This document shows positions 1,827 through 60,075 of a stretch of 64,000 nt of DNA, piece after piece. Within the stretch, counting starts at the first letter, position 1. The number at the start of each line of letters is the position of its first letter. The DNA is from Alphaproteobacteria bacterium (GTDB taxonomy: Bacteria; Pseudomonadota; Alphaproteobacteria; JAJTHO01; CANGYM01). The notes beneath the pieces were generated by a model. That model was given only the letters and a program-made list of their open reading frames with translations. It was not told where the DNA came from and searched no databases. The stretch spans positions 7,171 to 71,170 of the forward strand of contig JBILRW010000004.1 of the NCBI GenBank assembly GCA_044372405.1. The letters run 5' to 3'. The position numbers and the translations under genes are program-made.

Positions 1827-2906
1827 ATGACAAAAGACTGTTTTTTTTCTTTGGGATTGATGAGTGGCACGTCGGCGGATGGTATCGATGCGGCGCTGAT
1901 TCGCAGCGACGGGGAGGATTTTGTGGAAACATTGGATACGGCCTTTGTGGCCTATCCCGATGATTTTCGAAAACGGCTGCTTTCCTGCGCCCATGAGCAT
2001 CGGGAAGACGACGCTGTGCGCTCTGAATTTTCATATTGGAACCAGAAAGTTTGTGAGCAGATACTCACAAAAACAAAAGTGAGCGTTCACATGATCGCCA
2101 GCCATGGCCATACCGTGGATCATCGGCCTGATTTGGGATGGACAAAGCAAATGGATGATCCTGCTGCTTTGGCCCATCGGTTTTTCGTGCCTGTGGTGTC
2201 GGATTTTCGTCAAAACGATATGCAAAACGGCGGGCAAGGGGCGCCCTTGGTCCCCATCTATCATCGGGTGCGGGGGCGGGGCCATGCGAAACCGCTGGCC
2301 ATTGTGAATATCGGGGGGGTTAGCAACATTACCCTGATTGATCAAAGTGAACAAATGATCGCTTTTGATGCGGGGCCGGGCAATGCCCTGATGGATGATA
2401 TTTTACAAAAAAGCATCGGGGCGCGGTATGATCATGGGGGGACCCTGGCGCTTTCCGGCCAGGTTCACCAGGATCGGGCCGAGGCCCTGCTATCCGATCC
2501 TTTTTTTGCGCAAAAAGCCCCCAAGTCCCTGGATCGTAACCATTTCGCCCAGCGGGCCCAAAGTTTGGAGGGGCTGCCCTTGCCGGATCATCTGGCGACG
2601 CTGGCCTATGTCACGGCCCTGGCCATTGCCCGAGGTATCCTGATGCACCAGCCCCATTGCCAGGAATGTCTGCTGGTGGGGGGTGGGCGAAAAAATAAAG
2701 CGGTCGTTCACTTTTTATCAGGCCACCTGCCCTGCCCTGTCCGTGACGGCGATGCCGCAGGGTTTGACAGCGATTTTATGGAGGCCGAAGCCTTCGCCTA
2801 TCTGGGCATACGCAGCTTTTTGGGCCTGCCGTATTCCTTTCCCGAAACCACGGGGGTTCGTGTGCCTACGTGTGGGGGGGTGTGGACGTATCCGGGTGAC
2901 AGGTGA
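1827..2906 (+). CDS. anmK: anhydro-N-acetylmuramic acid kinase
   Basis: 359 aa; N-terminus GLMSGTSADGIDAALIR typical of AnmK; last codons GDR-stop are encoded by the heptad repeat. Confidence 0.85.
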   Translation: MTKDCFFSLGLMSGTSADGIDAALIRSDGEDFVETLDTAFVAYPDDFRKRLLSCAHEHREDDAVRSEFSYWNQKVCEQILTKTKVSVHMIASHGHTVDHRPDLGWTKQMDDPAALAHRFFVPVVSDFRQNDMQNGGQGAPLVPIYHRVRGRGHAKPLAIVNIGGVSNITLIDQSEQMIAFDAGPGNALMDDILQKSIGARYDHGGTLALSGQVHQDRAEALLSDPFFAQKAPKSLDRNHFAQRAQSLEGLPLPDHLATLAYVTALAIARGILMHQPHCQECLLVGGGRKNKAVVHFLSGHLPCPVRDGDAAGFDSDFMEAEAFAYLGIRSFLGLPYSFPETTGVRVPTCGGVWTYPGDR

Positions 2907-2939
2907 CAGGTGACAGGTGACAGGTGACAGGTGACAGGC
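2896..2939. repeat. tandem heptad array (GGTGACA)x6, single arm
   Basis: six perfect direct GGTGACA units read directly from sequence; same unit forms hairpin arms in the 23S IVSs and at 17.1, 38.1, 52.9 kb. Confidence 0.9.
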
Positions 2940-9369: not shown

Positions 9370-9372
9370 TCC

Positions 9373-9491
9373 GGAGGACGGAGGACAGAAGACCGAGGAC
9401 GGAATTTGTTTTGATCCTTTCAAGTGTTCAAAGGAATCTTTCCGCCCCTCCTCTGTCTTCTGTCCTCTGTCCTCCGTCCTGTCCTCCGTCC
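9373..9491. terminator. long GGACRG-repeat hairpin between argS and tyrS, terminator-like
   Basis: arm ggaggacggaggacagaagaccgaggacgga and complementary arm cctcctctgtcttctgtcctctgtcctccgtcc flank a ~45-nt loop directly after argS stop. Confidence 0.6.
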
Positions 9492-9527
9492 TTGCATCCC
9501 TAAAAAATGCTGATAGACTCGGGGCTT

Positions 9528-16929: not shown

Positions 16930-17257
16930 AAAAGGCGGGGTCGGGGCAGCAGGATTTGTCCCCCGGGTCAAGGGCGAGACGCCAAAAAAGTTGCGTAGCA
17001 AAGCCCCGAAGGGGCGGTCTTTTTTGGTGCGAGGCGAAGCGGACCCTTGAGGCGGGGGACAAATTCTGCTGGGTGGGAGCCTTTTCCTTGTGGGCCGAAC
17101 GCGGCTCCCGCCCCCACATTCAGGTAACAGGTATCAGGTTGCAGGTAACAGAAAACCCCGTCCTCTGGGGCTTGTTATTTCAAGGATACGTCTTGCTCTA
17201 CTTTTTTTCCTGTCACCTGTCACCTGTCACCTGTCACCTGATTCACCCCGCCACGTT
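16930..17257. repeat. ~325-bp composite element copy A (conserved 190-bp core plus heptad-repeat hairpin)
   Basis: ~90 percent identical to 37874-38197; hairpin arms caggtaacaggtatcaggttgcaggtaacag (17120-17150) and cctgtcacctgtcacctgtcacctgtcacctg (17208-17239); internal long-range pairing cagcaggatttgtcccc with ggggacaaattctgctg. Confidence 0.85.
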
Positions 17258-37873: not shown

Positions 37874-38197
37874 GAAAAGGCGGGGCGGGGCAGCAGGATT
37901 TGTCCACCGGGTCAAGGGCGAGACGCCAAAAAAGTTGCGTAGCAAAGCCGCGCAGCGGCGGTCTTTTTTGGTGCGAGGCGAAGCGAACCCTTGAGGCGGT
38001 GGGCAAATTCTGCTGGGTGGGAGCCTTTTCCTTGTGGGCCGAACGCGGCTCCCGCCCCCACATTCAGGTAACAGGTTGCAGGTAACAGGTAACCCAGCCC
38101 TCTAGGGCTTGTTATTTCGCTGGTACGTCTTGTTCCACTCTTTTTTCCTGTTACCTGTTACCTGCAACCTGTTACCTGATTCACCCCGCCGCGTTTT
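37874..38197. repeat. ~325-bp composite element copy B
   Basis: ~90 percent identical to 16930-17257 including heptad hairpin arms 38065-38093 and 38147-38178. Confidence 0.85.
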
Positions 38198-40143: not shown

Positions 40144-40440
40144 TTACGAAAATCCCCTCTCCACATCCATGGATTGGTGCAAAACATCGACAACAAAAAT
40201 ACCTTCTGGATCTGTTTTTCTGTAAAAAATCACATGGGACCCTTCAAAAAAGCACAAAGCGCCCTCTTCCAGTTCAGGCCTTGCCACACCATGGTGGGGG
40301 TTTTTGGCAAGATAGGCCATACGGTTTCTTAACGACAAAAGATAATGCTGGGTGCGATCAGGACCAAAGCGCTCCACAGAAAACTCTTTGATGTCTTTTA
40401 GACGCTGAAGGGCGCGTCGCGAGAGTCGATAGGAAGCCAT
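40144..40440 (-). CDS. parE: ParE/RelE-family toxin
   Basis: 98 aa MASYRLSRRALQRLKDIKEFS...VIFYRKTDPEGIFVVDVLHQSMD typical ParE. Confidence 0.75.
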   Translation of the reverse strand: MASYRLSRRALQRLKDIKEFSVERFGPDRTQHYLLSLRNRMAYLAKNPHHGVARPELEEGALCFFEGSHVIFYRKTDPEGIFVVDVLHQSMDVERGFS

Positions 40441-40445
40441 AACAT

Positions 40446-40688
40446 TTACAAATCAGCCATCAACTGATCCATAAACGTTTCCCCATCAACGGTATCGCCT
40501 GCCGCCCACTGTCGGTTGGCCTCGGCAAAGCACCCTTTTAAAAACGCTATCTTTTTCTGTTGCTCTTCCAGCAAAAACAAACCGGCCCGAACAGCCTCAC
40601 TGACCGAGGCAAAGCGTCCCTGATCCAGGCAACCCTGAACAAACTGGGCATAATGGGGAGTTAGCGTTACGCTGGTGTTTCGTTTCAT
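40446..40688 (-). CDS. parD: ParD/ribbon-helix-helix antitoxin
   Basis: MKRNTSVTLTPHYAQFVQGCLDQGRFASVSEAVRAGLFLLEE matches ParD N-terminal RHH; 5 nt upstream of parE. Confidence 0.65.
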   Translation of the reverse strand: MKRNTSVTLTPHYAQFVQGCLDQGRFASVSEAVRAGLFLLEEQQKKIAFLKGCFAEANRQWAAGDTVDGETFMDQLMADL

Positions 40689-40780
40689 AAAAACCTCTTG
40701 CACCCAATAATAATACACCTAAACATAATAAAATACAAGCGTCTATACCTGTTACAGATTGTCTTGAAAATACATCGGTG

Positions 40781-41931: not shown

Positions 41932-42235
41932 CACACTCCCTGCTGGCGAGATTTTCAAATTCCGCCCAACTCATAAGGGGTGCAGGCCGGTCTGTGACAC
42001 AGTAAAAATATGATAACTGACTCTCAGTGAGGGTTAGGCACCCCACAAGCAGAGCCATCTGTTTCTGTGGTGTCTAGCACCAAAAACTGAGAAGCTGAGA
42101 ACAATCCTCAAGCGTAAATAAGAGCATCTGGTGGATGCCTTGGCGATTGCAGGCGATGAAGGACGTGCTAGGCTGCGATAAGCAGCGGGGAGGGGCCAAG
42201 ACCCTTTGATCCGCTGATTTCCGAATGGGGGAACC

Positions 42236-42335
42236 CACCTTTCAGGTGACAGGTGACGGGTGACAGGTAACAGGTTTTGCATTGCGCAGGCCTGTCACCT
42301 GATACCTGTAACCTGTCGCCTGATCTAGGTATTCT
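42236..42335 (+). other. 23S rRNA intervening sequence 1 (helix 9 position), heptad-repeat hairpin
   Basis: arms caggtgacaggtgacgggtgacaggtaacagg / cctgtcacctgatacctgtaacctgtcgcctg replace helix 9. Confidence 0.8.
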
Positions 42336-42729
42336 TTGGCTGAACACATAGGCCTTAGAAAGCAAACCCAGTGAACTGAAACATCTCAGTAGCTGGAGGA
42401 AAAGACATCAACCGAGATTCCGTAAGTAGTGGCGAGCGAACGCGGAACAGCCCAGTGCTCTCTCGAATGTAACTGGAACGACTTGGAAAAGTCGGCCATA
42501 GTGGGTGATAGCCCCGTACAGGTAAGAATAGAGAGAGACTCGAGTAGGGCGGGACACGTGAAATCCTGTCTGAACATGGGGGGACCACCCTCCAAGGCTA
42601 AATACTCGCAATCGACCGATAGTGAACCAGTACCGTGAGGGAAAGGCGAAAAGAACCCCCATAAGGGGAGTGAAATAGAACCTGAAACCGGATGCTTACA
42701 AGCAGTTGGAGCGGGCGCACCCGAGGGCT

Positions 42730-42860
42730 GCGCCCAGGTAACGGGTAGCAGGTAACAGGTAACAGGTAGAAACTTTCGGGTCATAAACTTTTGTTAAATT
42801 GATCTGAAATTTTTCTTCCTGTCACCTGTCACCTGTCACCTGTCACCTGGCCGCGCCCTC
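42730..42860 (+). other. 23S rRNA intervening sequence 2 (helix 25 position), heptad-repeat hairpin
   Basis: arms caggtaacgggtagcaggtaacaggtaacaggtag / cctgtcacctgtcacctgtcacctgtcacctgg with AT-rich 50-nt loop, at the helix-25 IVS site known from Salmonella. Confidence 0.8.
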
Positions 42861-43808
42861 CGGCGCGCCCGTGACAGCGTACCTCTTGTATAATGGGTCC
42901 GCGACTTAGTGTAGCAAGCAAGGTTAAGCCGATAGGTGGAGCCGAAGCGAAAGCGAGTGTGAATAGCGCGTTTAGTTTGCTGTATTAGACCCGAAACCAA
43001 GTGAGCTAACCATGGCCAGGCTGAAGGTTGGATAACACCAACTGAAGGGCCGAACCCACGTCTGTTGAAAAAGACGGGGATGAGCTGTGGTTAGGGGTGA
43101 AAGGCCAATCAAACTTGGAAATAGCTGGTTCTCCGCGAAAACTATTTAGGTAGTGCGTCAGACGAATACCATGGGGGGTAGAGCACTGAATCGGCTAGGG
43201 GGGCGCGAGCCTTACCAAACCGAATCAAACTCCGAATACCCATGAGTACTATCTGGCAGACAGGCATCGGGTGCTAAGGTCCGGTGCCGAGAGGGAAACA
43301 GCCCAGACCGCCATCTAAGGTCCCCAAGACTATGTTAAGTGGGAAAGGATGTGGGAAAGCCATGACAGCTAGGAGGTTGGCTTAGAAGCAGCCATCCTTT
43401 AAAGAAAGCGTAATAGCTCACTAGTCTAATCAAGCATTCCTGCGCCGAAGATGTAACGGGGCTCAAACATAGCACCGAAGATGCGGGCGCGCCTATGGCG
43501 CGCGGTAGCGGAGCGTTCCCTAAGCCGTCGAAGCAGTCCTGTCAGGGGCTGTGGAGGTATGGGAAGTGAGAATGCGGACATGAGTAGCGACAAACAGAGT
43601 GAGAGACTCTGTCGCCGAAAGCCCAAGGGTTCCTATCCAATGCTAATCAGGGTAGGGTTAGTCGATTCCTAAGGCGAGGCCGAAAGGCGTAGTCGATGGG
43701 AACACGGTTAATATTCCGTGACCTTTGGTCCGTGACGGATCGAAACGATTGTACTTTCTTATCGGATTGATAAGTGCAGTCCAACGGTTCCAGGAAATAA
43801 CGGACCAG

Positions 43809-44380
43809 CTTGGGATTGTTTAAGGGAAAAGAAAAAAGCACGCCAGAGGCGACGTGCTAGAAATTTATTCGTTGTTGCGTCGACGATCAATTTCGTCGAG
43901 TGCAGCGAATGTGATGCATCCTGGAAGCATCGAAATTGCCCCAGGAATGTTTAAAACAAAAAGAAAAAAGAATCTCCATCCTCCTTCAACAAGGATCATT
44001 TCTGCTCCTTGCTTTGGAAATAGGGAAATTCTGTCGGTTTTAAACTCCTTCTCCAGAAGAATTGCGGAGAAGTAAACAAAAAACACGACTGTAACTAAAG
44101 AAGAAACGACTAAATTTAGGCGTCTTTTTTTGTACTTATCCATGGTGTTAAGTTATTTAACTAAGGTTTATTTTGACATTATGCAGTGCAGTGCAGTGCA
44201 GTGCAGTGCAGTGACATTTGTCACATTACGAAAAATAATTTCCCTTAAACAATCCCAGGCGTTCAGGTGACAGGTAACGGGTAACAGGTGACAGGTTGTG
44301 GGTTACAGGTTATGGGTAGATTTTCTACCTATTTTCTGTTTCCTCTTCCTGTTACCTGTCTCCTGTTACCTGTTACCCGG
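43809..44380 (+). other. 23S rRNA intervening sequence 3 (helix 45 position), composite ~570 bp
   Basis: 19-bp inverted repeat cttgggattgtttaaggga / tcccttaaacaatcccagg bounds an AT-rich 410-bp module with a 92-codon ORF (43865-44143, minus) and a (GCAGT)5 microsatellite (44183-44207); followed by heptad hairpin 44263-44379. Confidence 0.8.
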
Positions 44381-44649
44381 ACAATGATCGTACCCGAAAC
44401 CGACACAGGTGGGCAGGTCGAGTAGACCAAGGCGCTTGAGAGAAGTATCCTGAAGGAACTCGGCAAATTGCTCCCGTAACTTCGGAAGAAGGGAGCCCGT
44501 CATGAAGGCAACTTTTTGGCGGGGTCACAAAAGAGGGGGTTGCGACTGTTTAACAAAAACACAGGACTCTGCGAAGTCGTAAGACGAAGTATAGGGTCTG
44601 ACGCCTGCCCGGTGCCGGAAGGTTAAGGAAGGATGTGCAAGCATTTGAC

Positions 44650-44729
<80 letters not shown>

Positions 44730-45170
44730 TGAATGGCGTAACGACATCCCCACTGTCTCCAGGATATACTCAGCGAAATTGAATTCCCCGTGAAGATGCG
44801 GGGTTCCCGCGGTCAGACGGAAAGACCCCGTGCACCTTTACTACAGCTTTACACTGGCTCTAGGAATATCATGTGTAGGATAGGTGGGAGACTTTGAAGC
44901 CTTGGCGCCAGCCAGGGTGGAGTCAACCTTGAAATACCACCCTTGATGTTTTTAGGGTCTAACCCAGGTCCGTGAATCCGGATCGGGGACCGTGTATGGT
45001 GGGTAGTTTGACTGGGGCGGTCGCCTCCCAAATGGTAACGGAGGCGCGCGAAGGTAAGCTCAGTACGGTCGGAAATCGTACGTCGAGTGCAATGGCATAA
45101 GCTTGCCTGACTGCGAGGCTGACAAGCCGAGCAGAGACGAAAGTCGGTCATAGTGATCCGGTGGTTCTTC

Positions 45171-45224
<54 letters not shown>

Positions 45225-45253
45225 AACGCCCAAGCGTCCACAGCGACGGCGTT

Positions 45254-45331
<78 letters not shown>

Positions 45332-45339
45332 TGGTACGT

Positions 45340-45380
<41 letters not shown>

Positions 45381-45688
45381 TGCCGTGGGTGTTTGATGAT
45401 TGAGAGGATTTGCCCCTAGTACGAGAGGACCGGGGTGAACGTACCTCTGGTGTACCGATTGTGGCGCCAGCCGCATCGTCGGGTAGCTATGTACGGAACG
45501 GATAACCGCTGAAAGCATCTAAGCGGGAAACCGGCCTCAAAACGAGTCATCGTAGAGCCGTAGTAGACCACTACGTTGATAGGTGGCGTGTGAAAGGGTG
45601 GTAACACCTGAAGCTAAGCCATACTAATCGCTCATCTCTCTTTTGGATTGTTCTCGCGTCTTATGTTTTAACAAAGACGCATCTCATG

Positions 45689-45736
45689 CACCACCGTACA
45701 GGTTGGGGGTCCCTCCACCCCCATCCTGTACGGTGG
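45689..45736 (+). terminator. stem-loop downstream of 23S rRNA (terminator-like)
   Basis: caccaccgtacagg ... cctgtacggtgg 12-bp stem followed by T-rich ttatcatattttt. Confidence 0.4.
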
Positions 45737-45786
45737 GGTCAGTTATCATATTTTTGCGGTGTTGCTTCACATTTTCTTCATGAAAA

Positions 45787-46489: not shown

Positions 46490-46646
46490 AATGAAAAAAA
46501 AACGCTTGACGCGTTAGGAAAGTTCCCCACCATTATGGCAGCGCAGCGCAGTCAAGATAAATTTTGTGTAAATTTTAGGCAAGCGCCGACTAGACTTATT
46601 CAGGCCTGTATGATAAGCTAGAAAAATGATAAAGAAGGTAAACCTT

Positions 46647-46886
46647 ATGATGCAGATAGGGGCTTTTGAGGCCAAAAATCGTTTTTCGGAAATTTTGCGC
46701 TGGGTTGCGGAGGGTGAGGAAGTCACCATAACCCGCCATGGTAAAGTCGTGGCCGTCATCATGGACCCTGAACAGGGGCGGACCCAAAAAGCCTCTCAGG
46801 CTTTTAGACAGTGGGAAGCGTTGGCAGGCAGCATCAAGGCAACCCCCGGCGAAATCGCCGCATGGGTGAAAGACGGTCGTCCATGA
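46647..46886 (+). CDS. Phd/YefM-family antitoxin
   Basis: MMQIGAFEAKNRFSEILRWVAEGEEVTITRHGKVVAVIM matches the Phd/YefM N-terminal fold; stop overlaps the downstream PIN toxin start (ATGA). Confidence 0.7.
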   Translation: MMQIGAFEAKNRFSEILRWVAEGEEVTITRHGKVVAVIMDPEQGRTQKASQAFRQWEALAGSIKATPGEIAAWVKDGRP

Positions 46887-47290
46887 ACCTTGTTTTGGAC
46901 AGCTCGGTTGTCTTATCGGCCTTGCTGGCGGATGAACAGGCGGAGTATGCGTCCTTGATTATTGGCCGGTTGAAGCGTTGCGAAGTGTATGGTGTTGTGC
47001 CGTCCCTGTTTTTTATGGAAGCCGCCAACGGCCTTCTTATGGCGCACCGACGAAAAAGGGTGGGTCAAGACACGTTGATTCTGCTGTTGCAAACCCTCTC
47101 CATCATGCCTTTTGAGAGGATCGAAACACCGGATATTTTGCAAACAACCGCGCTGGCGCAAAAACACACCCTTACCGTTTATGATGCCACGTACCTGTCC
47201 ATCGCTCTGCGTGGGGCTTTCCCGCTGGCGTCTTTGGATTCAGCCCTGCAAAAGGCAGCCCTGGCAGAGGGGATCTTTTATCAGCCCTAG
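46883..47290 (+). CDS. vapC: PIN-domain toxin VapC
   Basis: MNLVLDSSVVLSALLADE...VYDATYLSIAL...SLDSAL conserved acidic residues of the PIN fold. Confidence 0.8.
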   Translation: MNLVLDSSVVLSALLADEQAEYASLIIGRLKRCEVYGVVPSLFFMEAANGLLMAHRRKRVGQDTLILLLQTLSIMPFERIETPDILQTTALAQKHTLTVYDATYLSIALRGAFPLASLDSALQKAALAEGIFYQP

Positions 47291-52836: not shown

Positions 52837-52856
52837 ATTGATTGCAAAGGACTTTC

Positions 52857-52894
52857 TGTCACCTGTCACCTGTCACCTGTCCCCCGTCACCTGA
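52857..52894. repeat. tandem heptad array (TGTCACC)x5, single arm
   Basis: ctgtcacctgtcacctgtcacctgtcccccgtcacctg; supplies the last codons (VTGDR-stop) of coaBC. Confidence 0.85.
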
Positions 52895-58917: not shown

Positions 58918-60075
58918 ATGGTCCGATTGGTCGCGTTCCTCTGGATATTAGTGTTAGGCAGCGCGAGCATGGCCCTGGCCGAAATCCCCATTGCCGCCGC
59001 GGGCCCCATGACCGGTCCCTATGCCAGCATTGGGGAGCAACTGCGGCGCGGGGCCAGTATGGCGGTAGAGGACATCAACGCCGCGGGGGGTCTGTTGGGT
59101 CAACCCCTGTCCCTGCGGATTATGGATGATGCGTGTGATCCGAAGCAGGCGACGTTGGTGGCGTCTCAACTGGCCAATGATCATTATACGTTTGTGGCGG
59201 GGCATTTTTGTTCCAGTGCGTCCATTCCGGCGTCCAATGTTTATAACGATGCGGGGATCATTATGGTCTCTCCGGCGTCCACATCCCCCACCCTCACCGA
59301 GCGTAATCTGACCAATATCTTTCGGGTGTGTGGCCGCGATGATCAGCAGGGGGTTATTGCTGCCGATTATATCCGCCGTCATTTTGGGGATCAGAGGCTG
59401 GCCATTATTCACGATAAAACCTCTTACGGCAAAGGCCTGGCCGATGTCACCAAAAAGGCATTGAATGAGGCCGGCCTTCAGGAAATTCTCTATGAAGGCA
59501 TCACCACGGGCGAGCGGGACTTTACGGCCCTGATTACCCGTATGAAATACCATAATATCGGTGTTTTGTACGTGGGGGGATACTTTACAGAGGCCGCTTT
59601 GCTCCGCCGCCAGGCCCATGATCAGGGCCTGAATATCCCGCTGATTTCTGGCGATGCGCTGGTGACGCGGGAATACTGGACCATTGCGGGGAAAACGGGG
59701 GAAGGCACGCTGATGACCTTTAACCCCGACCCTCGAAAAAACCCAGGCGCGGCCAAGGTGGTGCAGGCCTTTCGCGACCAAGGCTATGAGCCCGAGGGCT
59801 ATACGCTCTATAATTACGCCGGTGTTCAGGTGTATGCTGAGGCCGTCAAACGCGCTGGCACCACGGATGCCAAAGCCGTTCGTGATGTTATGCACGGCGG
59901 GACCTTTGATACCTTACTGGGCCCCATTACCTTTGATGCCAAGGGCGATGTGACCAAGCCGCAATATGTGGTTTATGAATGGTCCAAGGGGGAGTATGCG
60001 GAGATTGAGGATGGGGGACGGGGGACAGAGGACGGAAGACAGAGGACGGAAGACGGAGAAAAGAAGGGGAAGTAA
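58918..60075 (+). CDS. branched-chain amino acid ABC transporter substrate-binding protein (LivK/LivJ family)
   Basis: signal peptide, type-I periplasmic binding fold; last ~20 residues EDGGRGTEDGRQRTEDGEKKGK are encoded by a GGACRG repeat array. Confidence 0.8.
   Translation: MVRLVAFLWILVLGSASMALAEIPIAAAGPMTGPYASIGEQLRRGASMAVEDINAAGGLLGQPLSLRIMDDACDPKQATLVASQLANDHYTFVAGHFCSSASIPASNVYNDAGIIMVSPASTSPTLTERNLTNIFRVCGRDDQQGVIAADYIRRHFGDQRLAIIHDKTSYGKGLADVTKKALNEAGLQEILYEGITTGERDFTALITRMKYHNIGVLYVGGYFTEAALLRRQAHDQGLNIPLISGDALVTREYWTIAGKTGEGTLMTFNPDPRKNPGAAKVVQAFRDQGYEPEGYTLYNYAGVQVYAEAVKRAGTTDAKAVRDVMHGGTFDTLLGPITFDAKGDVTKPQYVVYEWSKGEYAEIEDGGRGTEDGRQRTEDGEKKGK
60015..60057. repeat. GGACRG-type tandem repeat array (single arm)
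   Basis: ggacgggggacagaggacggaagacagaggacggaagacggag, same unit family as the hairpin at 9373-9491. Confidence 0.8.

What the first reader, a model, noticed from the sequence alone, without database searches (positions are those of the whole stretch)
43809..44380. Helix-45 IVS is a composite carrying a 410-bp AT-rich module with an ORF and a pentanucleotide microsatellite
Inside the 23S gene, a 19-bp inverted repeat (cttgggattgtttaaggga / tcccttaaacaatcccagg) brackets a low-GC segment. The segment has a 92-codon ORF on the opposite strand (43865-44143; one TM helix; no resemblance to the known IVS-encoded four-helix S23p proteins that I can see). It is followed by (GCAGT)5 (44183-44207), a GTGACA-TT-TGTCAC palindrome, and then the heptad hairpin. 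In the antisense direction the microsatellite lies between a TGTCAC/GTGACA box and a TAATGT box upstream of that ORF, the geometry used by slipped-strand phase-variable promoters. This is a foreign, compositionally distinct cargo inside an rRNA gene.
Basis: seen in the sequence. Interest (0 to 1): 0.7.

Follow-up and report, generated by a model that had tools for sequence, protein, structure and literature searches.

The report
Antisense membrane-protein gene inside 23S rRNA
An extra hairpin in the large-subunit rRNA gene of an uncultured freshwater alphaproteobacterium carries, on the opposite strand, a small conserved membrane-protein gene with its own terminator and an upstream 5-base repeat, a kind of rRNA-insert cargo I could not find described.

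Summary
The sequence features are real, with small corrections. The inverted repeat is 22 bp (43808-43829 / 44239-44260). The repeat is (GCAGT)6, not 5. The insert is not in helix 45: it follows the 3' strand of the helix-54 equivalent (E. coli ~1597).

The inverted repeat is not a transposon end. It is a lineage-specific rRNA hairpin ("stem A") that related 23S genes keep with a 6-nt loop and compensatory changes. In this window its loop holds 409 nt.

That loop is one antisense gene cassette: 95 nt upstream region with the microsatellite, a 92-codon ORF, and an intrinsic terminator.

The ORF is a real gene. A 60%-identical homologue sits antisense at the same rRNA site in an independent assembly, with dN/dS 0.16, in-frame indels and a compensated terminator stem. 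A third member is 52% identical. The family matches no known protein family and is not S23p.

The upstream region and first 17 codons show almost no synonymous change, while the rest of the ORF is saturated.

My proposed mechanism is inferred: RNase III removes the insert, and expression of the gene runs inversely to rRNA transcription, as with a type I toxin. The phase-variable promoter idea is not supported by the spacing and remains untested.

The parts
42108..45648 (+). 23S rRNA gene that hosts the insertion. No 16S or 5S gene was found in the 64-kb window.
   Evidence: Rfam RF02541, 2660 bits, model positions 1-2925.
43726..43807 (+). Helix-54 equivalent, UUGGUCCGU (43726-43734) paired with ACGGACCAG (43799-43807), enclosing a much reduced H55-H59 region. 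The insertion begins at the next base.
   Evidence: RNA fold. Relatives have UUGGCCAGU / ACUGGCCAG, so the pairs covary. In E. coli the H54 strands are 1404-1415 and 1584-1596.
43808..43829 (+). Stem A, 5' arm. It is a native helix of this lineage's rRNA.
   Evidence: 22-nt inverted repeat, 95% complementary. Relatives L003-L012 carry the same helix with a 6-nt loop. 98.9% of cells pair, 9 pairs change on both sides, and 0 of 500 shuffles reach this.
43830..44238 (-). 409-nt loop of stem A. This is the cargo: one complete gene cassette on the strand antisense to the rRNA.
   Evidence: GC 38.6%. Absent from 10 related rrl loci. Present at the same site in L015.
43827..43858 (-). Intrinsic terminator of the antisense gene: stem-loop 43858-43837, then the tail TTTTTCTTTT, which runs into stem A.
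   Evidence: Terminator scan: 9 pairs, loop of 4, T-run. Two of the pairs are G.U only on the minus-strand RNA. L015 has AGCAGGTCG-TTTT-CGACCTGCT with compensatory changes.
43865..44143 (-). ORF92, a small membrane protein with two hydrophobic segments, a basic N-terminus (KYKKRR) and a charged C-terminus (LDEIDRRRNNE). It belongs to an orphan family of three members.
   Evidence: P0001 is 60% identical at E = 8e-29, and P0003 is 52% identical. dN/dS is 0.16, differences by codon position are 27/15/46, and both indels are in frame. No match in Pfam, PHROG, NCBIfam, PADLOC or PDB.
44093..44182 (-). Block conserved at the nucleotide level: the first 17 codons plus 39 nt upstream of the ATG. It includes the -10-like CATAAT (44183-44178), which abuts the repeat.
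   Evidence: 37 of 39 upstream bases are identical to L015. pS is 0.09 in codons 1-17 against 0.9-1.0 in codons 18-63.
44183..44212 (.). (GCAGT)6 microsatellite, read as (ACTGC)6 on the gene's strand. It lies 40-69 nt upstream of the ATG.
   Evidence: Tandem Repeats Finder: period 5, 6.4 copies, 100% matches; regex count. Also present in L015 with at least 4.8 copies, where the contig ends.
44211..44224 (.). Palindrome GTGACA-TT-TGTCAC, between the repeat and the 3' arm of stem A.
   Evidence: Read directly from the sequence. Function unknown.
44239..44260 (+). Stem A, 3' arm.
44261..44382 (+). Stem B, a long imperfect hairpin built from the heptads CAGGTRA / CCTGTYA. It is a separate helix next to stem A.
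   Evidence: Inverted repeat I5 and RNA fold. Relatives have the same element at this site with variable length and heptad type.

Best explanation
SHOWN:
- In this lineage of uncultured freshwater Alphaproteobacteria, the 23S rRNA gene carries two extra hairpins immediately after helix 54: stem A and the heptad stem B.
- In the sub-lineage represented by this window and by contig L015, the apical loop of stem A holds a self-contained gene on the strand antisense to the rRNA.
- The cassette consists of about 95 nt of upstream sequence with a conserved (GCAGT)n tract, a 90-92-codon ORF for a small protein with two hydrophobic segments, and an intrinsic terminator that stops antisense transcription at the base of the loop.
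- The gene is maintained by purifying selection on the protein, and its terminator stem is maintained by compensatory changes.
- Its 5' ~130 nt are constrained at the nucleotide level.

INFERRED:
- The 22-bp perfect stem A lets RNase III cut the whole cargo out of pre-23S rRNA, as with classical IVSs. The ribosome is therefore unharmed and the loop is a 'safe harbour' for a gene.
- The pre-rRNA is fully complementary to the mRNA and is made in large excess during growth. Expression of the protein is therefore repressed by transcriptional collision and by RNase III cleavage of the sense-antisense duplex, and it rises only when rRNA synthesis falls.
- This logic resembles a type I toxin-antitoxin pair, with the rRNA insert acting as the antisense RNA.
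- The repeat tract probably belongs to the promoter or operator zone, since it abuts the -10-like CATAAT. Whether it varies in length is unknown.
For: Site and helices:
- The insert sits at Rfam model ~1640 and E. coli ~1597.
- The fold gives three side-by-side helices, with z = -10.9.
- Stem A is present with a 6-nt loop in 10 related rrl loci. 98.9% of its cells pair, 9 of 22 pairs change on both sides, and 0 of 500 shuffles reach this.

Gene:
- A full HMMER scan of 1.84 billion representative proteins finds one true relative, P0001 (60% identity, E = 8e-29). A profile search adds P0003.
- P0001 is encoded in L015, an independent ENA assembly. It is antisense at the same rRNA junction, and the 5' rRNA flank is 98.4% identical.
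- Over the ORF, nucleotide identity is 68.5%, pN is 0.225, pS is 0.667 and dN/dS is 0.16. Differences by codon position are 27/15/46. Both indels are 3 nt long. All other frames carry stops in at least one copy.
- A terminator follows the stop codon. It uses G.U pairs that exist only on the minus-strand RNA, and L015 shows compensatory changes in the stem.

Regulatory block:
- pS is 0.09 in codons 1-17 and 0.9-1.0 in codons 18-63. 37 of 39 upstream bases are identical, and the repeat tract is present in both copies.

Foreign composition: GC3 is 0.37, against 0.58-0.67 in host genes.

RNase III plausibility:
- An 18-bp perfect stem flanks the whole 23S gene at 42004-42021 / 45738-45755.
- The Coxiella IVS is excised by RNase III at a 28-bp stem (PMC4990558).
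Against: - There are no expression data of any kind.
- No sigma-70-type promoter is predicted on the minus strand, and no Shine-Dalgarno sequence precedes the ATG (sequence).
- The mRNA 5' region is not unusually structured (z = -0.84). The cause of the nucleotide-level constraint is therefore unexplained.
- At 90-92 aa with two hydrophobic segments, the protein is larger than typical type I toxins. It matches none of their Pfam families, and its toxicity is unknown.
- Only two DNA copies exist, and only one (this window) shows the right half of the cassette.
- Excision of the insert is assumed, not shown. Actinobacteria keep a ~110-nt helix, H54a, at a comparable site in the mature ribosome (PMC3286452).
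- The AlphaFold model has low confidence (pLDDT 61.5).
Confidence: 0.55

Rival explanations
1. Phase-variable gene. Slipped-strand changes in the number of GCAGT units switch the antisense promoter on and off by altering promoter geometry.
For: - A perfect 6-copy pentanucleotide tract lies 40-69 nt upstream of the ATG.
- It abuts a -10-like CATAAT and is flanked upstream by GTGACA, a 5/6 match to the -35 consensus.
- The tract is retained in a second lineage whose ORF is saturated at synonymous sites.
- The L015 contig breaks inside the tract, which could reflect length heterogeneity in the population.
- Steps of 5 bp are half a helical turn and would flip the face of the upstream palindrome.
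Against: - GTGACA and CATAAT are 35 nt apart. Removing units gives 30, 25, 20 or 15 nt, never 16-18.
- The consensus scan finds no minus-strand promoter.
- No second complete copy is available, so no length polymorphism has been observed.
- The contig break has more ordinary explanations.
Confidence: 0.2
2. Passive hitch-hiker. The cassette is an ordinary horizontally acquired small gene that landed in a tolerant rRNA loop. It is expressed from its own promoter with no functional relation to rRNA transcription or processing.
For: - The composition is foreign (GC3 0.37 against ~0.62).
- The cassette has its own terminator.
- The loop of stem A is dispensable, since relatives have a 6-nt loop there.
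- IVSs are known to carry unrelated ORFs, including S23p and transposases (PMC4990558, PMC2672173).
Against: - All three family members found among about 15 billion proteins lie on short contigs. The two with DNA are both in this rRNA loop and both antisense.
- No free-standing homologue was found anywhere.
- Head-on placement inside one of the cell's most heavily transcribed genes cannot be neutral for expression.
Confidence: 0.2
3. Mobile element (MITE or IS remnant) with 19-22-bp terminal inverted repeats that transposed into the rRNA gene.
For: - A long, nearly perfect inverted repeat brackets an AT-rich segment with an ORF.
- IS elements with inverted repeats do occur in the 23S genes of Nostoc and Deinococcus (PMC2672173).
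Against: - The inverted repeat is the native stem A. It is present without cargo in relatives and shows RNA-type covariation, including G.U pairs.
- There is no target-site duplication.
- No other copy exists in the 64-kb window or in the plasmid, phage, viral or metagenome collections.
- The ORF is not a transposase.
Confidence: 0.03
4. Chance ORF in an AT-rich spacer, or an assembly chimera.
For: - T-rich sequence readily yields hydrophobic ORFs.
- rRNA regions in metagenome assemblies are prone to chimeras.
Against: - Only 0.5-1.3% of shuffles give an ORF this long.
- The ORF stays open across 31% nucleotide divergence with a third-position bias, and dN/dS is 0.16.
- The same rRNA-cargo junction appears in an independent assembly, L015. 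The exact P0001 sequence is also on record in an NCBI assembly.
Confidence: 0.02

Closest known systems
Classical 23S rRNA intervening sequences (IVS) with an S23p ORF, as in Coxiella, Leptospira, Salmonella and Campylobacter. They lie in helices 9, 25 and 45 and are excised by RNase III.
   Same: - Extra sequence sits at the tip of an rRNA helix.
- Its ends form a long, nearly perfect stem (22 bp here, 28 bp in Coxiella; PMC4990558).
- The interior is AT-rich and carries a roughly 100-codon ORF.
- Short tandem repeats lie next to the ORF. Coxiella has GACAGAT heptads whose number varies between strains (PMC4990558).
- Relatives of this organism carry true S23p IVSs in helix 25 and helix 45.
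   Different: - The site follows helix 54, not helix 9, 25 or 45.
- The ORF is on the antisense strand, whereas the S23p ORFs in L004 and L005 are on the sense strand.
- The ORF has its own terminator.
- The product is a hydrophobic membrane-type protein, not a four-helix bundle, and has no PF05635 hit.
- The ORF is under clear purifying selection, whereas the Coxiella S23p ORF is reported to be decaying.
Type I toxin-antitoxin systems (hok/sok, ldr/rdl, tisB/istR, ibs/sib). My knowledge of these families is from memory.
   Same: - The product is a small hydrophobic protein.
- The mRNA is fully overlapped by an abundant cis-encoded antisense RNA.
- The 5' UTR and first codons are the part most conserved at the nucleotide level.
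- RNase III is expected to cleave the duplex.
   Different: - The antisense partner would be the pre-rRNA insert itself, not a dedicated sRNA.
- The protein is 90-92 aa with two hydrophobic segments, against usually under 60 aa with one.
- There is no homology to any known toxin family.
- Toxicity has not been tested.
[quoted passage not shown]
   Same: It is a protein-coding gene on the strand opposite the large-subunit rRNA gene. It encodes a small protein and is normally kept silent.
   Different: - TAR1 is eukaryotic.
- It overlaps mature 25S sequence rather than a removable insert.
- There is no sequence relationship.
Actinobacterial helix H54a, the 'steeple' or 'handle' of mycobacterial ribosomes, PMC3286452.
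   Same: A lineage-specific extra helix follows helix 54 in domain III. This shows that the site is solvent-exposed and tolerates added RNA.
   Different: - H54a is about 110 nt, is retained in the mature ribosome and carries no gene.
- Here there are two helices, and one of them has a 409-nt coding loop.

Membership tests
23S rRNA intervening sequence (RNase III-excised IVS) | Extra sequence inside the 23S gene at the tip of a helix, relative to relatives that lack it. | tested here: met
   There are 409 nt in the loop of stem A, where 10 related rrl loci have a 6-nt loop.
23S rRNA intervening sequence (RNase III-excised IVS) | The ends pair into a long, nearly perfect duplex of about two helical turns or more, suitable for RNase III. 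| tested here: met
   A 22-bp stem with one G.U pair, conserved with covariation.
23S rRNA intervening sequence (RNase III-excised IVS) | Excision without religation, which leaves fragmented mature 23S rRNA. | not testable with these tools
   This needs RNA data such as a Northern blot, RACE or RNA-seq coverage.
23S rRNA intervening sequence (RNase III-excised IVS) | Location at a canonical site (helix 9, 25 or 45). | tested here: not met
   The insert lies after the 3' strand of helix 54, at E. coli ~1597. Helix 45 of this gene is short.
S23p / 23S_rRNA_IVP (PF05635) | Sequence match to the four-helix-bundle family. | tested here: not met
   No Pfam hit at E <= 10 for any of the three proteins. 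Relatives' IVS ORFs do hit PF05635.
Type I toxin-antitoxin | A small hydrophobic membrane protein. | tested here: inconclusive
   There are two hydrophobic segments and charged termini. At 90-92 aa, the protein is larger than typical members, and it has no homology to known toxin families.
Type I toxin-antitoxin | A cis-encoded antisense RNA overlaps the toxin mRNA. | tested here: met
   By geometry, the entire cassette lies inside the 23S transcription unit on the opposite strand. That both RNAs are actually made has not been shown.
Type I toxin-antitoxin | Toxicity of the protein and its neutralisation by the RNA. | not testable with these tools
   This needs expression experiments.
Slipped-strand phase-variable promoter | A perfect simple-sequence repeat tract long enough to slip. 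| tested here: met
   (GCAGT)6 with 100% matches.
Slipped-strand phase-variable promoter | The tract lies between the -35 and -10 elements, so that some copy number gives a functional 16-18-nt spacer. | tested here: not met
   GTGACA and CATAAT are 35 nt apart, and 5-nt steps give 20 or 15. The scan finds no minus-strand promoter.
Slipped-strand phase-variable promoter | Copy number differs between strains or within populations. | tested here: inconclusive
   L015 ends inside the tract after 4.8 units. No other DNA copy could be retrieved.
MITE / insertion sequence | Terminal inverted repeats that belong to the element, a target-site duplication and multiple copies. | tested here: not met
   The inverted repeat is native rRNA stem A. 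There is no duplication and no other copy.
Group I / II intron | A ribozyme core that a covariance model can recognise. | tested here: not met
   Rfam gives no intron hit on 43800-44400 even at E <= 5. A true group I intron is detected in a relative at a different site.

The most novel reading that the evidence does not exclude
The rRNA insert and its antisense gene form a growth-rate sensor built like a type I toxin-antitoxin pair.
- While rRNA is transcribed, the excised insert RNA and head-on polymerase traffic silence a membrane-active protein.
- When rRNA synthesis stops, the protein is made and alters membrane function, causing dormancy, lysis or exclusion of competitors.
- The conserved (GCAGT)n tract adds a heritable, reversible on/off layer.

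If this is right, it would give some IVSs a function and would reveal a hidden class of genes that annotation pipelines skip because they lie inside rRNA genes.
Probability: 0.2. Interest if true: 0.9.

Novelty: new variant of a known kind. Interest (0 to 1): 0.66.

Why it matters
IVSs were discovered in 1990, yet their function and the reason they carry ORFs remain unresolved. The best-studied cargo, S23p, appears not to be expressed and is decaying in Coxiella (PMC4990558).

Here the cargo is clearly under selection as a protein. It is insulated by its own terminator and points against rRNA transcription. This makes a specific and testable link between rRNA synthesis and expression of a membrane protein.

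It is also a bacterial counterpart to yeast TAR1.

There is a practical consequence as well. Genes inside rRNA genes tend to be missed, because annotators mask rRNA and assemblies break there. That may explain why only three members turned up among about 15 billion proteins.

Tried and rejected
Searches for the protein:
- The word-indexed search with ORF92 alone found nothing. Only the full HMMER scan found the family.
- Two metagenome scans, two viral scans and BLAST against plasmids and phages found no other copy.
- Pfam, PHROGs, NCBIfam, PADLOC and PDB sequence searches gave nothing credible. The NF052408 hit, at 20 bits against a cut-off of 60, is a hydrophobic-segment match.
- The AlphaFold2 model from the 3-sequence alignment has low confidence (pLDDT 61.5), so I ran no fold search.

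Attempts to retrieve more DNA copies:
- Exact-protein look-ups of spurious ORFs that span the junctions failed.
- DNA for the NCBI contigs that carry P0001 and P0003 was not available.
- The genome-contig scan with an rrl flank found two related MAGs labelled 'Alphaproteobacteria bacterium', but not the source genome.

Interpretations rejected:
- The local alignment made by cmscan paired the helix-54 5' strand with CCCGGACAAUG, which lies after the insert. I rejected this because relatives covary with ACGGACCAG / ACUGGCCAG before the insert, and not with the later segment.
- The module shows no similarity to any other part of the window.
- An internal start in ORF92, AAGGAG-N5-ATG at 44010-43997, would give a 44-aa single-TM peptide. 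I rejected it because it is not conserved in L015.
- The mRNA 5' structure does not explain the nucleotide-level constraint (z = -0.84).
Full report
**1. What is in the sequence**

The window carries one bacterial 23S rRNA gene at 42108-45648 on the + strand (RF02541, 2660 bits). No 16S or 5S gene is found in the 64 kb. At 3541 nt the gene is about 600 nt longer than the model, because of three insertions.

- The inverted repeat is 22 nt at 95% complementarity, 43808-43829 / 44239-44260.
- It encloses 409 nt at 38.6% GC. The rest of the 23S is 52.5-54% GC.
- The minus-strand ORF at 43865-44143 has 92 codons and starts with ATG.
- The microsatellite is (GCAGT)6 at 44183-44212, not five copies.
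- GTGACA-TT-TGTCAC is at 44211-44224.
- A heptad hairpin follows at 44261-44382.

**2. Where it is**

It is not helix 45. In the Rfam alignment the insert falls at about model position 1640 of 2925.

I aligned the region to an annotated E. coli rrl. There the helix-54 strands lie at 1404-1415 and 1584-1596, and AAUCGUACCCC starts at 1596.

In the window, the helix-54 equivalent is UUGGUCCGU (43726-43734) paired with ACGGACCAG (43799-43807). Relatives have UUGGCCAGU / ACUGGCCAG, so the pairs covary. The insertion starts at the very next base, which corresponds to E. coli ~1597.

Helix 45 of this gene, near 43487-43503, is a short hairpin with no insert.

A lineage-specific helix 'following H54', called H54a, is known in Actinobacteria (PMC3286452). 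The site is therefore known to tolerate extra RNA. I did not check whether H54a occupies exactly the same junction.

**3. The inverted repeat is a native rRNA helix**

I recovered rrl genes of relatives in two ways. The first used a spurious ORF inside the conserved 3' part of the 23S as an exact-match handle (loci L002-L010). The second was a flank pattern scanned against the species-representative genomes (L011 and L012, Lake Mendota MAGs labelled 'Alphaproteobacteria bacterium').

At the same position all of these relatives carry two elements:
- a hairpin of 22 bp with a 6-nt loop, for example CCUGUGAUUAUUUGAGAAGAU-GGCAUC-AUCUUUUUGAAUAAUCACAGG;
- a heptad hairpin of variable length directly after it.

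I aligned four distinct versions of this helix. 98.9% of cells pair, 9 of 22 pairs change on both sides, and 0 of 500 shuffles reach these values. Sliding the partner by one to three columns drops pairing to 35-51%.

So 'stem A' is a selected RNA helix of this lineage. What is special in the window is that its loop is 409 nt rather than 6.

The RNA fold of 43722-44395 gives three side-by-side helices with z = -10.9: the H54 equivalent, stem A closing the cargo, and stem B.

This rules out a transposon with terminal inverted repeats. In addition, no other copy exists in the window or in the plasmid, phage or viral collections.

**4. The loop is a gene cassette on the antisense strand**

Read on the minus strand, the 409 nt consist of the following, in order:
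- 95 nt of upstream sequence: the palindrome, (ACTGC)6, then CATAAT and 33 more bases;
- ATG and 92 codons;
- TAA, followed after 6 nt by a stem-loop, AGCACGTCG-CCTC-TGGCGTGCT;
- the tail TTTTTCTTTT, which runs into the stem A arm. The scan reports this as a terminator.

Two of the nine stem pairs are G.U on the minus-strand RNA. They would be A-C mismatches on the rRNA strand, so the hairpin is shaped for the antisense transcript.

**5. The ORF is a real gene**

- The word-indexed search with ORF92 alone found nothing.
- The exhaustive HMMER scan of 1.84 billion representative proteins found P0001, 90 aa, 60% identical over the full length, E = 8e-29.
- A profile search added P0003, 91 aa and 52% identical.

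P0001 is encoded on L015, a 782-nt contig from an independent ENA assembly. L015 covers the same stretch of 23S: its 5' rRNA flank is 98.4% identical and the stem A arm is identical. The gene sits in the same loop and is again antisense. This also rules out an assembly chimera.

Comparison of the two ORFs:

| Measure | Value |
|---|---|
| Nucleotide identity | 68.5% |
| pN / pS | 0.225 / 0.667 |
| dN/dS | 0.16 |
| Differences at codon positions 1/2/3 | 27 / 15 / 46 |
| Indels | two, each 3 nt |

Every other frame has stops in at least one copy.

The terminator stem of L015, AGCAGGTCG-TTTT-CGACCTGCT, differs from the window's by compensatory changes.

In shuffles of the loop, an ORF of 92 codons or more appears in only 0.5-1.3% of trials.

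**6. The protein**

- It has a basic N-terminus, (M)DKYKKRR, and hydrophobic segments at about residues 8-30 and 48-82. The second segment contains the conserved motifs GGW.FF and PG....PG.
- Its C-terminus, LDEIDRR, is conserved and charged.
- AlphaFold2 gives helices at 3-35, 43-52 and 56-91, with low confidence (pLDDT 61.5).
- There is no credible match in Pfam, PHROGs, NCBIfam, PADLOC or PDB. It is not S23p.
- By contrast, the relatives' IVS ORFs in helix 25 and helix 45 are PF05635 proteins and lie on the sense strand.
- Only these three sequences exist among about 15 billion proteins. Further metagenome and viral scans found none.

**7. A sharply bounded nucleotide-conserved block**

Synonymous divergence between the window and L015 is 0.09 in codons 1-17. 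It is 0.9-1.0 in codons 18-63.

The 39 nt upstream of the ATG differ at two positions. Both copies then run into the GCAGT tract, and L015 ends there after 4.8 units.

Saturated synonymous sites alongside ~98% rRNA identity are what one expects of two species of a genus. In my recollection, E. coli and Salmonella show a similar pattern. The unusual part is therefore the conserved 5' block. It points to a function at the DNA or RNA level, such as a promoter or operator, or an antisense interaction.

The mRNA 5' region is not unusually structured (z = -0.84), so this remains unexplained.

**8. The phase-variation idea**

In its favour, the tract is real, perfect and retained in two diverged lineages. 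It abuts a conserved -10-like CATAAT at 44183-44178.

Against it:
- The only -35-like hexamer, GTGACA, is 35 nt upstream. Steps of 5 nt give 30, 25, 20 or 15 nt, never 16-18.
- The consensus scan finds no minus-strand promoter.
- No second complete copy could be read.

I rate this idea as possible (about 0.2) but not supported. A half-turn phasing effect relative to the palindrome remains conceivable.

**9. Mechanism proposed**

Shown: there is a conserved, self-terminated, antisense protein gene in the loop of a native rRNA hairpin.

Inferred:
- (a) RNase III removes stems A and B from pre-23S rRNA, as with classical IVSs. Supporting points are a 22-bp perfect stem, an 18-bp perfect processing stem flanking the whole gene at 42004-42021 / 45738-45755, and the Coxiella precedent (PMC4990558).
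- (b) The pre-rRNA is a perfect antisense to the whole mRNA and is transcribed head-on across its promoter. The gene is therefore silenced while rRNA is being made and released when rRNA synthesis falls.
- This is type I toxin-antitoxin logic with the rRNA insert as the RNA partner. What the protein does in the membrane is unknown.

The AT-rich composition (GC3 0.37 against 0.58-0.67 in host genes) suggests the cassette was acquired horizontally. It was acquired before the two lineages split.

**10. Comparison and novelty**

- IVSs with ORFs are known, carrying S23p or transposases (PMC4990558, PMC2672173).
- Tandem repeats next to an IVS ORF are also known. Coxiella has GACAGAT heptads whose number varies between strains.
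- Three things are new here: the site after helix 54, the antisense orientation with a dedicated terminator, and an orphan membrane-type protein under clear purifying selection.
- My literature searches found no bacterial precedent. The nearest analogy is yeast TAR1 (PMC3026818).

I classify this as a new variant of a known kind.

Noticed in passing
window 42231-42330 and 42716-42866: The same 23S gene carries two more insertions made of heptad hairpins (CAGGTGA / CCTGTCA). One is in the helix-9 region, where 86 nt replace 12 model positions. The other is in helix 25, about 150 nt with an AT-rich loop. Neither has an ORF.
   Followed up: partly
window 2895-2938, 17121-17240, 38065-38178, 52856-52893; also 9372-9492 and 60009-60058: The same heptads (GGTGACA / CAGGTAA) form tandem runs, several of them paired as hairpins, between ordinary genes across the window. 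A second heptad family (CGGAGGA / GGACGGA / AGACAGA) does the same. In relative L004, this second family builds stem B at the helix-54 site. This looks like a genome-wide family of repeat hairpins that also colonises rRNA helices.
   Followed up: partly
window 42004-42021 and 45738-45755: A perfect 18-bp inverted repeat brackets the whole 23S gene. It is presumably the RNase III processing stem. A terminator-like 20-bp hairpin lies at 45691-45736.
   Followed up: no
whole window: There is no 16S or 5S rRNA gene within 64 kb of the 23S gene, so the rRNA genes appear to be unlinked.
   Followed up: no
window 40144-40718 and 46626-47290: The rrl is flanked on both sides by type II toxin-antitoxin pairs. 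ParD/ParE lies upstream and Phd/PIN (VapC-like) downstream (Pfam marks).
   Followed up: no
L004 (3645-4019), L005 (2788-3168, 501-881, 67-447): Related 23S genes carry sense-strand PF05635 (S23p) ORFs in large helix-25 and helix-45 IVSs. L005 also has PF05635-type genes just outside the 3' end of the rrl.
   Followed up: partly
L012 3300-3568; L004 about 1647-2075 (equivalent to window 44694/44695): Some relatives have a group I intron (RF00028, 78 bits) inserted in the helix-69/71 region of the 23S. The window's gene lacks it.
   Followed up: partly
window 44010-43997 (minus strand): Inside ORF92 there is a strong Shine-Dalgarno sequence, AAGGAG, 5 nt before an in-frame ATG at codon 49. It would give a 44-aa single-TM peptide. 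This start is not conserved in L015.
   Followed up: yes
window 44173-44178 (+ strand): A perfect TTGACA hexamer lies on the rRNA-sense strand just before the microsatellite and is conserved in L015. No matching -10 element follows, so its meaning is unknown.
   Followed up: no
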